In this document: piece by piece, positions 56,297 through 56,579 of the stretch
Layout of the letters: each line of letters starts with the position of its first letter
Position numbering within the stretch: position 1 is the stretch's first letter
DNA from: an archaeon
GTDB taxonomy: Archaea > Nanobdellota > Nanobdellia > Pacearchaeales > GW2011-AR1
Assembly (NCBI GenBank): GCA_018657525.1
Contig: JABHWZ010000003.1
Coordinates: forward strand, 14,840 to 78,839
Reading direction: 5' to 3'
DNA length: 64,000 nt
Notes under the pieces: generated by a model
The model's database searches: none
What the model was told of the DNA's origin: nothing
Seen by the model: the letters and a program-made list of their open reading frames with translations, nothing else
Made by a program: the position numbers and the translations under genes

Positions 56297-56336
56297 ATAA
56301 TAATCTTCAACAAAAAGAGTATTTAAATTTTTAGAA

Positions 56337-56506
56337 TAGCCCCTCTTGGATTGGTTTCGCAGCTGAACAAAGTGAAGACCGAAATCAGCGAGGAACTTTT
56401 TTCCGATGCTCGGACCTGGAAGGTTCGAAGACTGGAATAGCCCCTCCAGGATCCTGTCCTCAGGTTCTTGTGCCATCTTAGGTATCGAACCTTGGTTCGA
56501 ATCAAA
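56337..56506 (-). repeat. two tandem inserts, each followed by another copy of the tRNA-Gln 3' end
   Basis: tagcccctccagga at 56507 (the gene) and at 56438; tagcccctcttgga at 56337. Confidence 0.85.
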
Positions 56507-56579
56507 TAGCCCCTCCAGGATTCGAACCTGGGTCACCGGATTCAGAGTCCGATATACTTGACCACTGTACTAAGGGGCT
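56507..56579 (-). tRNA. tRNA-Gln (anticodon CUG)
   Basis: AGCCCCT/AGGGGCT acceptor, TCGGA-CTCTGAA-TCCGG anticodon arm, CCAGG-TTCGAAT-CCTGG T arm. 73 nt. Confidence 0.85.

What the first reader, a model, noticed from the sequence alone, without database searches (positions are those of the whole stretch)
56297..56579. tRNA-Gln 3' end present three times in direct orientation, separated by 55- and 87-nt inserts
Downstream of tRNA-Gln(CUG), the T-stem/acceptor 3' strand ATCCTGGAGGGGCTATT recurs at 56438-56453. A variant AATCCAAGAGGGGCTATT (T-stem CCAAG instead of CCTGG, so from a different tRNA-Gln allele or isoacceptor) lies at 56337-56354. Insert 1 contains the palindrome TCGAACC-AA-GGTTCGA and GATACCTAAGATGGCACAAGAACCTGAGGACAGGAT abutting the repeat. 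The layout is that of serial (accretive) integration into a tRNA gene with crossover in the T loop. The inserts, however, are two orders of magnitude smaller than any autonomous integrative element.
Basis: partly seen in the sequence, partly recalled or inferred. Interest (0 to 1): 0.8.

Follow-up and report, generated by a model that had tools for sequence, protein, structure and literature searches.

The report
Repeated tRNA ends with hairpin mini-element
Downstream of all three tRNA genes in this stretch of a DPANN archaeal chromosome the tRNA's own 3' end is repeated, and a conserved 33-base two-hairpin mini-element sits beside the repeats and also occurs in-frame inside housekeeping genes of related archaea, which points to very small DNA insertions that repeatedly land at tRNA genes.

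Summary
tRNA-Gln(CUG) lies on the minus strand (56506-56580). Its last 17 nt recur at 56436-56452 (exact) and 56335-56351 (2 mismatches): 3 hits against 0.09 expected.

It is not an isolated oddity. All three tRNAs in the window carry downstream copies of their own 3' end: Gln, an intron-containing Glu that default tools missed, and Lys. The tRNA-Glu end occurs four times, and two copies bracket a whole orphan methyltransferase gene.

Insert 1 is not a random scar. It is a T-loop palindrome plus a conserved 32-35-nt two-hairpin module placed precisely after TCGA with no target duplication. The same module follows tRNA-Gln in three other Woesearchaeota-type assemblies (1-3 tandem units) and tRNA-Ser in another. 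It also lies in-frame inside PheRS-beta in 2 of 120 relatives. Orthologous tRNA-Glu genes in two relatives are empty.

The best reading is DNA-level accretion at tRNA 3' ends combined with a family of tiny GC-rich hairpin insertion sequences. No integrase, transposase or Cas1 was found in the window, and no viral or plasmid carrier was found, so the enzyme is unknown. The kind of feature is known, but the minimal unit and the module appear undescribed.

The parts
56506..56580 (-). tRNA-Gln(CUG), intact; its last 17 nt (56505-56521) are repeat copy 1
   Evidence: ARAGORN; Rfam RF00005 67.6 bits
56485..56504 (-). spacer plus T-loop palindrome (tRNA sense: TTTGA-TTCGAACC-AA-GGTTCGA); its left arm is the reverse complement of the tRNA's own T arm
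   Evidence: inverted repeat I5 (15 nt, 87%)
56453..56484 (-). 32-nt two-hairpin module (tRNA sense: TACC-TAAGAT-GG CACAAGAA CCTG-AGGA-CAGG), inserted between A58 and A59 of a T-loop copy
   Evidence: D4; (2 hits vs 0.02 expected); covariance model R1 53.8 bits
56436..56452 (-). tRNA-Gln 3'-end copy 2 (exact 17 nt)
56352..56435 (-). 84-nt insert 2: begins with a degenerate T-loop palindrome (TTCGAACC-TTCCA-GGTCCGA), then 58 nt with no relative found
   Evidence: sequence; I3; no hit with model R1; no BLAST relative
56335..56351 (-). tRNA-Gln 3'-end copy 3 (ATCCAAGAGGGGCTATT, 2 mismatches)
56106..56297 (-). tRNA-Glu(CUC) with a 117-nt intron, missed by default ARAGORN and Rfam
   Evidence: aragorn -i; orthologues in L001 and L013
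56047..56105 (-). tRNA-Glu unit: spacer plus palindrome (AATTCGAAC-AGAGAA-GTTCGA) and the 35-nt module (56047-56081)
   Evidence: D4, I13; R1 53.6 bits
56031..56046 (-). tRNA-Glu 3'-end copy 2 (1 mismatch)
   Evidence: D6
55280..55924 (-). 214-aa class I methyltransferase ORF bracketed by Glu copies 2 and 3; its last codons and stop lie in copy 3; no homologue at E<=1e-10
   Evidence: Pfam
55282..55327 (-). tRNA-Glu 3'-end copy 3 (55282-55294), preceded by the T-loop palindrome ATTCGA-TCATTTAT-TTCGAATCTC and a 10-nt insertion; no module
55127..55139 (-). tRNA-Glu 3'-end copy 4
   Evidence: 4 hits vs 0.08 expected
12612..12688 (-). tRNA-Lys(CUU); its 3' end plus 16 nt of trailer form an exact 24-nt direct repeat, 12598-12621 and 12396-12419
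   Evidence: D4
12420..12451 (+). 32-nt module inside the distal tRNA-Lys copy, antisense to the tRNA, between GGCCTCGA and AGGGATTT (a precise insertion with no duplication)
   Evidence: R1 52.3 bits
50889..50910 (+). half-module (hp2 hairpin plus CACGAGAA) in the intergenic space beside the RFC gene stop
   Evidence: R1 20.6 bits, E 0.014; sequence
42612..42719 (-). ~105-nt GC-rich element containing a half-module, in-frame inside the Trm5/TYW2 gene; second copy at 26630-26735(+)

Best explanation
This is a DNA-level accretion array at tRNA 3' ends, combined with a family of very small GC-rich hairpin insertion sequences. Step 1 is inferred from the anatomy. DNA is repeatedly inserted at the T-loop/3'-end of a tRNA gene in a way that regenerates the intact tRNA and leaves the earlier 3' end downstream as a direct repeat. 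The inserted pieces range from a non-coding unit of about 52 nt to a piece of about 750 nt carrying a methyltransferase gene with its own promoter. The distal junction carries a T-loop palindrome: an inverted T-arm piece, a short loop, a direct T-loop piece, then the tRNA 3' end. Step 2 is shown directly. A 32-35-nt module lies exactly after TCGA with no target duplication. It consists of hairpin hp2, the conserved CACGAGAA core and hairpin hp1. It sits in the T-loop of the distal, non-functional copy at Gln, Glu and Ser. It sits at a TCGA on the opposite strand of the distal tRNA-Lys copy. It lies in-frame in PheRS-beta in two relatives. Half-modules and a related 105-nt element occur elsewhere, including in-frame in Trm5. 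An insertion into the functional T-loop would destroy a tRNA gene (archaea typically carry one gene per tRNA type), so only insertions in redundant copies are expected to persist; this is inference. Step 3 is inferred. Once two 17-nt repeats flank a unit, unequal exchange can expand or shrink it, giving 1-3 identical units, and can keep the distal copies identical to each species' own acceptor sequence. The enzyme is unknown. A recombinase or ssDNA (HUH-type) transposase acting in trans and encoded elsewhere is the most likely agent.
For: The repeats are non-random and directional. The Gln 17-mer gives 3 hits vs 0.09 expected, the Glu 13-mer 4 vs 0.08, and Lys has an exact 24-nt repeat. Extra copies lie downstream of 7 of 16 tRNAs and upstream of none, always on the tRNA strand. 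Presence varies: L001 has 1 unit, L013 has 2 plus a degenerate fourth copy, L139 has 3, the window has 1 plus a different 84-nt insert, and tRNA-Glu is empty in L001 and L013. A gene-sized insert exists: an orphan methyltransferase between Glu copies 2 and 3, ending in palindrome plus copy 3. The module forms a family: the pattern scan hit only DPANN genomes above the chance level, and model R1 scores 42-58 bits on 10 distinct copies. Insertion is precise and leaves no duplication: GGTTCGA|M|ATCC matches the intact GGTTCGAATCC, and GGCCTCGA|M|AGGGATTT matches the intact tRNA-Lys antisense. The module is in-frame in PheRS-beta in 2 of 120 relatives. A ~45-residue insertion in the window's Trm5 relative to PDB 5yac coincides with the 105-nt element. 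The hp1 hairpin and core are 96% identical between the Gln and Glu units of the window but differ between genomes (D4), which suggests spread or homogenisation within the genome. Background: tRNA fragments left by integrating elements are a general feature of prokaryotic genomes (PMC9897764), and element integration has been proposed to explain tRNA fragments and intron gain in Caldiarchaeum (PMC3293823).
Against: No integrase, transposase, Cas1 or HUH protein was found among 45 window ORFs; about 16 remain unannotated. No viral or plasmid carrier of the module was found. A 52-nt 'element' is far below the size of anything known to integrate by a tyrosine recombinase. The constant architecture of the small unit at three tRNAs is not what random erosion would leave. 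In all four species the module accompanies the first distal tRNA-Gln copy, so the module may be part of the inserting unit rather than a second, independent insertion. Repeat lengths differ (13, 16-17, 24 nt), so there is no single simple cut-and-fill rule. Glu copy 2 has a mismatch while the more distal copies 3 and 4 are perfect, so age does not increase simply with distance. The loci were found through the module, so frequencies are biased.
Confidence: 0.5

Rival explanations
1. The whole ~52-58-nt unit (spacer, T-loop palindrome and module) is itself the mobile element. It targets tRNA T-loops at position 58/59 and duplicates the 16-17 nt up to just past the tRNA end, as a long target-site duplication (casposase/Cas1-like or integron-like chemistry). 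Each insertion rebuilds the target, so units can stack.
For: The architecture and the 16-17-nt repeat are the same at Gln (4 genomes), Glu and Ser. Tandem units are identical. The unit's T-loop copy carries the same departure from the tRNA (CC[A/G]AGG instead of CCCAGG) in all four tRNA-Gln loci, as expected if it belongs to the element. The Gln and Glu units of the window share an identical hp1 hairpin (D4).
Against: The module also occurs alone, without palindrome or repeat, in PheRS-beta and in the tRNA-Lys copy. The palindrome plus repeat occurs without the module at Glu copy 3. The left arm of the palindrome matches the local T-loop in tRNA-Ser (AATCGAACC), which suggests local derivation. 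Repeat lengths vary from 13 to 24 nt. There are no terminal inverted repeats and no Cas1 in the window.
Confidence: 0.2
2. The units are functional RNA or processing signals, co-transcribed with the tRNA. Examples would be a protein-binding hairpin pair, a 3'-trailer structure or a small RNA.
For: The module reads in the transcript-sense direction at Gln, Glu, Ser, in PheRS-beta and behind the small ORF at the Lys locus. Hairpin potential is kept: 94% of cells are paired against 24-43% when the partner columns are slid. Between L066 and L156 the module differs at 4 of 33 nt, including a compensatory T-A to C-G change, while the host proteins are only 68% identical. All four tRNA-Gln loci have it.
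Against: It is absent from the orthologous tRNA-Glu in L001 and L013 and from all five tRNA-Thr genes. Copy number varies from 1 to 3. Distal copies decay. It is antisense to tRNA-Lys. The half-copy at 50889 is antisense to both neighbouring genes. The core pairs are invariant, so covariation support is thin: only 2 pairs show a change on both sides. No Rfam family matches, even at E<=10. Single-sequence folds are unremarkable (z about -3).
Confidence: 0.13
3. The module is a bulge-helix-bulge intron at the non-canonical position 58/59. The locus would then be an intermediate of intron gain or loss: an intron-bearing 3' exon plus an intron-less patch.
For: The module sits exactly between A58 and A59 of a T-loop copy. 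From my own knowledge, not checked here, T-loop positions are among the non-canonical intron sites reported in Thermoproteales. DPANN lineages carry a broad-specificity epsilon2-type splicing endonuclease (PMC5829648, abstract listed). The neighbouring tRNA-Glu has a long intron. PMC3293823 links element integration to intron gain.
Against: By inspection, no 3-nt bulge / 4-bp helix / 3-nt bulge can place both module boundaries. The only exon-pairing stretch (GAAC with GUUC) is followed by the 12-16-nt hp1 hairpin instead of a 2-nt bulge segment, and the hp2 hairpin is separated from it by an asymmetric 4/5-nt loop. An intact tRNA lies upstream, so splicing is not needed. At tRNA-Lys the orientation is reversed. 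In PheRS-beta the flanks cannot pair with the module in the same way.
Confidence: 0.07
4. There is no mobile element. The repeats are local duplications from slippage or break repair at the palindromic T-loop TTCGAA.
For: TTCGAA is a perfect palindrome. The junction contains an inverted local T-arm piece (I5, I13). Units are tandem and identical.
Against: The same 32-35-nt module occurs at unrelated loci and in different genomes. A foreign orphan gene lies between repeats. Neither can arise from local duplication.
Confidence: 0.05

Closest known systems
tRNA-gene fragments / att-site repeats left by integrative elements (tyrosine-integrase islands, SSV- and pNOB8-type archaeal elements; tandem accretion)
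   Same: Direct repeats of the tRNA 3' part lie downstream of an intact tRNA. The boundary is in the T arm. Several repeats occur in series. One insert carries a foreign gene (background in PMC9897764 and PMC3293823).
   Different: No integrase gene, intact or split, is present. Inserts are 52-750 nt rather than kilobases. The smallest insert is a conserved unit, not debris. A separate 33-nt module interrupts the distal copy.
Rickettsia palindromic elements and yeast mitochondrial GC clusters (small palindromic selfish DNA in AT-rich genomes, tolerated in-frame in genes); comparison from my own knowledge
   Same: These are GC-rich hairpin-forming insertions in a ~31% GC genome, found in-frame in essential housekeeping genes (PheRS-beta, Trm5) as well as in non-coding DNA.
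   Different: The module is much shorter (32-35 nt against roughly 100-150 nt for RPEs). It is archaeal. It inserts precisely after TCGA. It is strongly associated with copies of tRNA 3' ends. Sequence relatedness to those families was not tested.
IS200/IS605-type ssDNA transposition and its non-autonomous derivatives (PATEs; REP elements with RAYT transposases); comparison from my own knowledge
   Same: Insertion lies 3' of a fixed tetranucleotide with no target-site duplication. Small hairpins lie at both ends. Structure is conserved more than loop sequence.
   Different: No Y1/HUH transposase was found in the window. The element is several-fold shorter than known PATEs. The hairpins abut the ends instead of being subterminal with guide and linker segments.
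Integron cassette arrays (attI plus attC), including those reported in Archaea (PMC9668308)
   Same: Insertion is serial at one fixed site. The single-gene methyltransferase insert is an ORF in array orientation followed by an imperfect palindrome plus the repeated site. ORF-less units also occur.
   Different: The palindrome arms (TTCGAAC / GTTCGA) do not fit the RYYYAAC / GTTRRRY cores, as recalled from my own knowledge. No intI is present. The anchor is a tRNA gene, whereas the archaeal integron paper never mentions tRNA.
Casposons / CRISPR adaptation (Cas1-family integration with duplication of the target)
   Same: Insertion at a tRNA 3' end with a long duplication (16-17 nt at Gln, Glu and Ser) and stacking of units next to the anchor.
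   Different: There are no terminal inverted repeats and no Cas1. Duplication length is not fixed (13-24 nt). The insert is a conserved sequence rather than varied spacers.

Membership tests
Integrated element of a tyrosine integrase (att repeats at a tRNA gene) | Direct repeat of the tRNA 3' segment flanking the inserted DNA, with an intact tRNA at one end | tested here: met
   Gln 3 copies, Glu 4 copies, Lys 2 copies, all downstream on the tRNA strand
Integrated element of a tyrosine integrase (att repeats at a tRNA gene) | Integrase gene (intact, or split as in the SSV type) within or beside the insert | tested here: not met
   No Phage_integrase or other recombinase domain in 45 window ORFs; the ORFs inside the arrays are a methyltransferase and spurious GC-rich ORFs
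Integrated element of a tyrosine integrase (att repeats at a tRNA gene) | Free or integrated full-length copies elsewhere (virus, plasmid or island carrying the same junction) | tested here: not met
   IMG/VR scans gave only chance hits; no match in the phage or plasmid collections. DPANN mobile elements are poorly represented in these collections.
Archaeal BHB intron | Both boundaries lie in 3-nt bulges separated by a 4-bp helix (or an accepted relaxed form) | tested here: not met
   By inspection of 9 copies: the hp1 hairpin (12-16 nt) lies between the only exon-pairing stretch and the 3' boundary, and a 4/5-nt asymmetric loop lies at the 5' boundary
Archaeal BHB intron | Removal from the transcript | not testable with these tools
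   No transcriptome data available
Integron (attI/attC cassette array) | attC with R''/R' cores RYYYAAC ... GTTRRRY and an intI integrase | tested here: not met
   The palindrome arms TTCGAAC/GTTCGA(A/T) do not fit the cores (consensus recalled from my own knowledge); no intI in the window
Casposon | Cas1-family casposase, terminal inverted repeats, fixed 14-15-bp target duplication | tested here: not met
   No Cas1; no terminal inverted repeats in the unit; repeats of 13, 16-17 and 24 nt
IS200/IS605-derived miniature element (PATE) or REP/RAYT | Insertion 3' of a fixed short target with no target-site duplication | tested here: met
   The left flank is TCGA in 6 of 7 distinct sites (TTGA in L156). 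The flanks rebuild the uninterrupted sequence exactly at Gln, Glu, Ser and Lys.
IS200/IS605-derived miniature element (PATE) or REP/RAYT | Hairpins near both ends, conserved as structure | tested here: inconclusive
   Both hairpins can form in all 10 distinct copies with variable loops, but the core pairs are invariant and only 2 pairs show double changes
IS200/IS605-derived miniature element (PATE) or REP/RAYT | Cognate Y1/HUH transposase in the genome | not testable with these tools
   None in the 64-kb window; the rest of the genome is not available
Palindromic selfish elements tolerated in coding regions (RPE-like) | The same short hairpin-forming sequence lies in-frame in unrelated genes and in non-coding DNA, with presence/absence among relatives | tested here: met
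   The module is in PheRS-beta of 2 of 120 relatives. The 105-nt relative is in Trm5, as a ~45-residue insertion against PDB 5yac, and also beside the RsmB-like gene.

The most novel reading that the evidence does not exclude
tRNA genes of these DPANN archaea may serve as anchor sites of an integron-like cassette system. The tRNA T-arm/3' end would play the part of attI. A folded site of about 50-70 nt (T-loop palindrome, two-hairpin module and a copy of the tRNA end) would play the part of attC. Cassettes would range from ORF-less units to single genes such as the orphan methyltransferase. A host tyrosine recombinase (XerA-like), or an enzyme not yet recognised, would insert them, possibly through single-stranded folded DNA. 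The 33-nt module would then be among the smallest self-contained recombination or mobile units known.
Probability: 0.1. Interest if true: 0.85.

Novelty: new variant of a known kind. Interest (0 to 1): 0.6.

Why it matters
DPANN archaea have tiny genomes and, as archaea typically do, one gene per tRNA type, so anything that repeatedly lands in tRNA genes without destroying them is a significant force on genome integrity. If the reading is right, three things follow. First, these lineages carry insertion sequences only 32-35 nt long that can sit in-frame in aminoacyl-tRNA synthetases and tRNA-modification enzymes. That would be a source of lineage-specific protein loops and a practical warning for annotation and phylogenomics. 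Second, tRNA 3' ends act as accretion points at which even single genes are captured. Third, the responsible enzyme is unknown and could be found by correlating unit presence with gene content across complete DPANN genomes. There are practical consequences too: the region produces spurious ORFs (55974-56261 +, 56240-56536 -), tRNA fragments, and an intron-containing tRNA-Glu that default tools miss.

Tried and rejected
1. Protein-coding reading of the module: rejected. The total length varies from 31 to 35 nt in non-coding copies, and the tRNA-Lys copy has stop codons in the frame shared by Gln and Glu (hand translation).

2. Known RNA family: none at Rfam gathering thresholds in the window, and none at E<=10 in the region.

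3. Hammerhead-like CUGANGA in the window's hp1 loop: not conserved in other copies.

4. K-turn (L7Ae site) around hp2: the 3' strand fits (stem, CAC, GA), but the 5' strand has two extra nucleotides (GA-UA-stem). Rejected as a canonical K-turn by inspection.

5. BHB intron: no fit (see membership test).

6. Synteny anchor (98-aa membrane protein). The window organism's other assembly (L153) is identical over the whole interval, and more distant relatives lack the tRNA there, so this gave no new tRNA-Gln loci.

7. Methyltransferase homologue contexts: no homologue to examine.

8. Viral contigs (two patterns), phage and plasmid collections: only chance hits or none.

More copies certainly exist beyond that limit.

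10. Insert 2 (84 nt) and the tRNA-Lys insert: no relatives found by the model or by BLAST.

11. The 12-mer test at up to 2 mismatches was uninformative (4 hits vs 3.98 expected) and was replaced by the 17-mer test.
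Full report
OBSERVATION. The tRNA is on the minus strand: tRNA-Gln(CUG) at 56506-56580 (ARAGORN; Rfam 67.6 bits). Read in tRNA sense, ATCCTGGAGGGGCTATT covers the T-loop end, the T-stem 3' strand, the acceptor 3' strand, the discriminator and TT. It occurs at 56505-56521 (in the tRNA), at 56436-56452 (exact) and at 56335-56351 (2 mismatches, ATCCAAGAGGGGCTATT). At up to 3 mismatches there are 3 hits in the window against 0.09 expected, and no shuffle reaches 3. There are no other copies on either strand. 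With a 17-nt repeat the inserts measure 52 and 84 nt.

THE SAME THING HAPPENS AT EVERY tRNA IN THE WINDOW. The window comes from a ~31% GC archaeal chromosome with housekeeping genes such as RFC, archaeal PheRS alpha and beta, PolB, FEN1, RadA and CDC48. Relatives are labelled Woesearchaeota, Pacearchaeota or Nanoarchaeota. Beside tRNA-Gln lies a tRNA-Glu(CUC) with a 117-nt intron (56106-56297). Default ARAGORN and Rfam missed it; intron mode finds it, along with orthologues in L001 and L013. Its 3' end TCGGCGAGGGCGT occurs four times in direct orientation: in the tRNA, at 56031-56043 (1 mismatch), at 55282-55294 and at 55127-55139. That is 4 hits against 0.08 expected. Copies 2 and 3 bracket a complete 214-aa class I methyltransferase gene with its own upstream AT-rich promoter-like region, and its last codons and stop lie in copy 3. 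That protein has no homologue at E<=1e-10 other than itself. tRNA-Lys(CUU) (12612-12688) has an exact 24-nt direct repeat of its 3' end plus trailer, 202 nt apart (D4).

INSERT 1 IS A CONSERVED UNIT. A 25-nt stretch of insert 1 recurs at 96% identity next to the first distal tRNA-Glu copy (D4; 2 hits vs 0.02 expected), and in diverged form next to the distal tRNA-Lys copy. In tRNA-Gln sense the module reads TA(A)CC-loop-GG CACGAGAA CCTG-loop-CAGG, 31-35 nt in total. Comparison with the intact tRNAs shows a precise insertion. GGTTCGA|module|ATCC corresponds to GGTTCGAATCC in Gln, with the same logic in Glu and in tRNA-Ser of L075. GGCCTCGA|module|AGGGATTT corresponds to the uninterrupted antisense of tRNA-Lys. 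So the module sits immediately 3' of TCGA with no target duplication. At tRNA-Lys, whose T-loop is TTCAAAT, it uses a TCGA on the other strand and is therefore antisense to the tRNA. Upstream of the module, in the Gln, Glu and Ser units, lies a short palindrome: an inverted piece of the local T arm, a 2-8-nt loop and a direct T-loop piece (I5, I13, I3). In tRNA-Ser the inverted arm carries the Ser-specific T-loop base (AATCGAACC). The same palindrome, without the module, precedes tRNA-Glu copy 3 at the far end of the methyltransferase insert. A degenerate one opens the 84-nt insert 2.

RELATED GENOMES. A degenerate pattern matching all three window modules was scanned against one genome per species. 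About 28 hits were scattered single matches in unrelated bacteria, close to my estimate of ~24 chance hits for this pattern. Three hits were DPANN loci. A looser metagenome scan, after filtering, added more. L001/L152 has tRNA-Gln(CUG) with one unit whose module is partly duplicated (hp2 half, hp1 half, hp2 half). L013 has two identical 69-nt units plus a degenerate fourth 3'-end copy (4 hits vs 0.17 expected). L139 has three identical 67-nt units. L075 has one unit after tRNA-Ser(GGA). L013 and L001 share the membrane-protein gene upstream of tRNA-Gln with the window, so these are the same locus. In each species the distal copies match that species' own acceptor sequence. The unit's T-loop copy, by contrast, keeps a shared departure from the tRNA (CC[A/G]AGG rather than CCCAGG). 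The orthologous tRNA-Glu genes of L001 and L013 and all five tRNA-Thr genes have clean 3' ends. Across 16 tRNAs in the held low-GC loci, 7 have downstream copies of their own end and none has an upstream copy (counting Lys). These loci were found through the module, so this is not a frequency estimate. A second assembly of the window organism (L153) is identical over the interval.

THE MODULE ALSO SITS INSIDE GENES. In L066 the 33-nt module lies in-frame in PheRS-beta, in mRNA sense, after GTCGA, and encodes TLSGHENLRTG. The window's PheRS-beta lacks these residues. Among 120 relatives only L066 and P0025 (L156, TPSGHENLRAG) carry it, at the same position. The two module sequences differ at 4 of 33 nt, including a compensatory T-A to C-G change in the hp2 hairpin, whereas the proteins are 68% identical. 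The same protein family contains many other short lineage-specific insertions. Some peptide types recur at different positions (LDTxxQTGQ, QLDSQGHQTGR...VPSSS...KLRSxGA), and their DNA contains GATACC and ATCGAAC motifs like the module. In the window, the covariance model finds half-modules (hp2 plus CACGAGA) at 50889-50910, at ~42649-42670 and at ~26677-26698. The last two belong to a ~105-nt GC-rich element present twice at ~83% identity. One copy lies in-frame in Trm5/TYW2: window residues 3-176 and 222-309 align to residues 99-258 and 261-343 of solved Trm5b, so about 45 residues are inserted.

STRUCTURE. A covariance model built on 9 copies scores 42-58 bits on 10 distinct true copies. 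On the model-derived alignment 94% of cells are paired, against 24-43% when the partner columns are slid. The core pairs never vary, however, and only 2 pairs show changes on both sides. Stem extensions do co-vary by eye (CC/GG, CCC/GGG, CCCT/AGGG, CCCC/GGGG, ACC/GGT; CCTG/CAGG against CCTGC/GCAGG and CCTGT/ACAGG). Hairpin potential is therefore preserved, but a selected fold is not proven. Single-sequence folds of the locus are unremarkable.

WHAT IT IS NOT. It matches no Rfam family. It is not coding as such: lengths are not multiples of three outside genes, and the tRNA-Lys copy has stops. It is not a canonical BHB intron, since the boundaries cannot be placed in two 3-nt bulges around a 4-bp helix. 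It does not fit the integron attC cores and is not next to an intI. It is not casposon-like: no terminal inverted repeats, no Cas1, and variable repeat length. No integrase, transposase, Cas1 or HUH nuclease appears among 45 ORFs of the window. L156 encodes a 277-aa tyrosine recombinase of the usual XerA size and domain make-up. No viral contig, phage or plasmid record carries the module.

INTERPRETATION. tRNA fragments left by integrating elements are a known, general phenomenon (PMC9897764). Integration has also been proposed as the source of tRNA fragments and new introns in Caldiarchaeum (PMC3293823). What differs here is scale and regularity. The commonest insert is a ~52-58-nt non-coding unit of fixed architecture. 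Its distinctive part, the 32-35-nt two-hairpin module, behaves as a tiny insertion sequence in its own right: it inserts precisely after TCGA without duplication, in either orientation relative to the tRNA, and is tolerated in-frame in essential genes. I consider two-layer DNA accretion the most likely account (confidence 0.5). Layer one is insertion at the tRNA end that leaves a palindrome plus a repeat. Layer two is the module family inserting at TCGA and surviving only in redundant T-loop copies. Unequal exchange between the 17-nt repeats would then expand units and homogenise them. The main rival (0.2) is that the whole unit is the mobile element and the repeat is its long target duplication. 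The two are hard to separate, because the module accompanies the first distal copy at all four tRNA species, yet module and palindrome each also occur alone. RNA-level function (0.13), a BHB intron (0.07) and purely local duplication (0.05) fit less well. The enzyme is unknown in every version.

NOVELTY AND SCORE. Repeated tRNA ends are a known kind of feature. The conserved minimal unit, the 33-nt module shared between tRNA-end copies and coding genes, and the single-gene insert between tRNA-end repeats appear undescribed in the searchable literature. I rate it a new variant of a known kind, with interest 0.6. The most novel reading not excluded is a tRNA-anchored, integron-like cassette system (probability about 0.1).

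Noticed in passing
window 56106-56297 (-); L001 1412-1671; L013 1996-2212: tRNA-Glu(CUC) carries a very long intron (117, 186 and 144 nt). A sequence block (…TCTAGCATCTCAATGCAACC…) is conserved across the three genomes. Default ARAGORN and Rfam miss the gene. The conserved block suggests that the intron has a function of its own; no C/D-box pattern was obvious by eye.
   Followed up: partly
window 26630-26735 (+) and 42612-42719 (-): Two copies (~83% identical) of a ~105-nt GC-rich element with several hairpins and the CACGAGAG core. One lies in-frame in Trm5/TYW2 (a ~45-residue insertion relative to PDB 5yac). The other lies at the junction of the two ORFs of an RsmB/F-PUA methyltransferase.
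   Followed up: partly
window 26068-26691 and 26928-28031 (-); ~26790-26960: An RsmB/F-type methyltransferase appears split into a catalytic ORF and a PUA-domain ORF. The sequence between them contains what looks by eye like a ~60-nt tandem duplication covering the end of the first ORF.
   Followed up: no
window 42052-42987 (+), residues ~127-139: A second, 13-residue insertion in Trm5 (GRSSAYPKLRNAK) relative to solved Trm5b. It resembles the ...PKLRSDGA / ...KLRSEGA insertions seen in PheRS-beta relatives and may be another mini-insertion family.
   Followed up: no
L075 1186-1247 and 1513-1571 (+): Both tRNA-Ser genes are preceded by a copy of their own first ~16 nt, followed by a conserved ~45-nt hairpin insert (GCTCTCGACTTTGTCGAATACGACGAGCATACTGAA). 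This is the mirror image, at the 5' end, of the 3'-end repeats.
   Followed up: no
window ~55150-55215 (-) and 43695-43761 (-): A ~70-nt repeat (GAGCAACTTTGATTTT ... AAAAATCAGGGTTGGGAA) lies just downstream of a stop codon in both places (methyltransferase and HerA-like gene). In the second place it is followed by GGCGAGGC, which resembles the tRNA-Glu acceptor end.
   Followed up: partly
P0005-P0124 (PheRS-beta relatives); L157 2274-4136: PheRS-beta of Pacearchaeota and Nanoarchaeota ranges from 545 to 620 aa because of many short lineage-specific in-frame insertions. Some peptide types recur at different positions, and P0045 carries five of them.
   Followed up: partly
L013 ~1930-1995 (-): A different GC-rich palindrome (…GATGCCCCGGTGGGGGG…CCCCCACCCCCGGCAAGGGCATTG) lies directly downstream of tRNA-Glu.
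   Followed up: no
window 11479-11714 (+): Near the tRNA-Lys locus: an exact 38-nt direct repeat (11551-11588 and 11609-11646) and a ~50-nt repeat 187 nt apart (11479-11529 and 11666-11714) in AT-rich non-coding sequence.
   Followed up: no
window 55974-56261 (+) and 56240-56536 (-): ORFs of 95 and 98 aa run through the GC-rich tRNA and repeat region. They are almost certainly artefacts of the local base composition and could be miscalled as genes.
   Followed up: partly
window 35241-40692: Six consecutive ORFs of 221-331 aa have no Pfam match at E<=1e-5, flanked by GC-rich islands at 36942-37010 and 37178-37233. Possibly a variable or acquired region.
   Followed up: no
L014 2300-2800: A module copy lies in a ~1.3-kb intergenic stretch next to ThrRS that is rich in GC-rich repeated motifs (GGGAAGCTGGGC occurs twice). 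No tRNA and no Rfam family is detected there; it may be an unrecognised structured RNA.
   Followed up: partly
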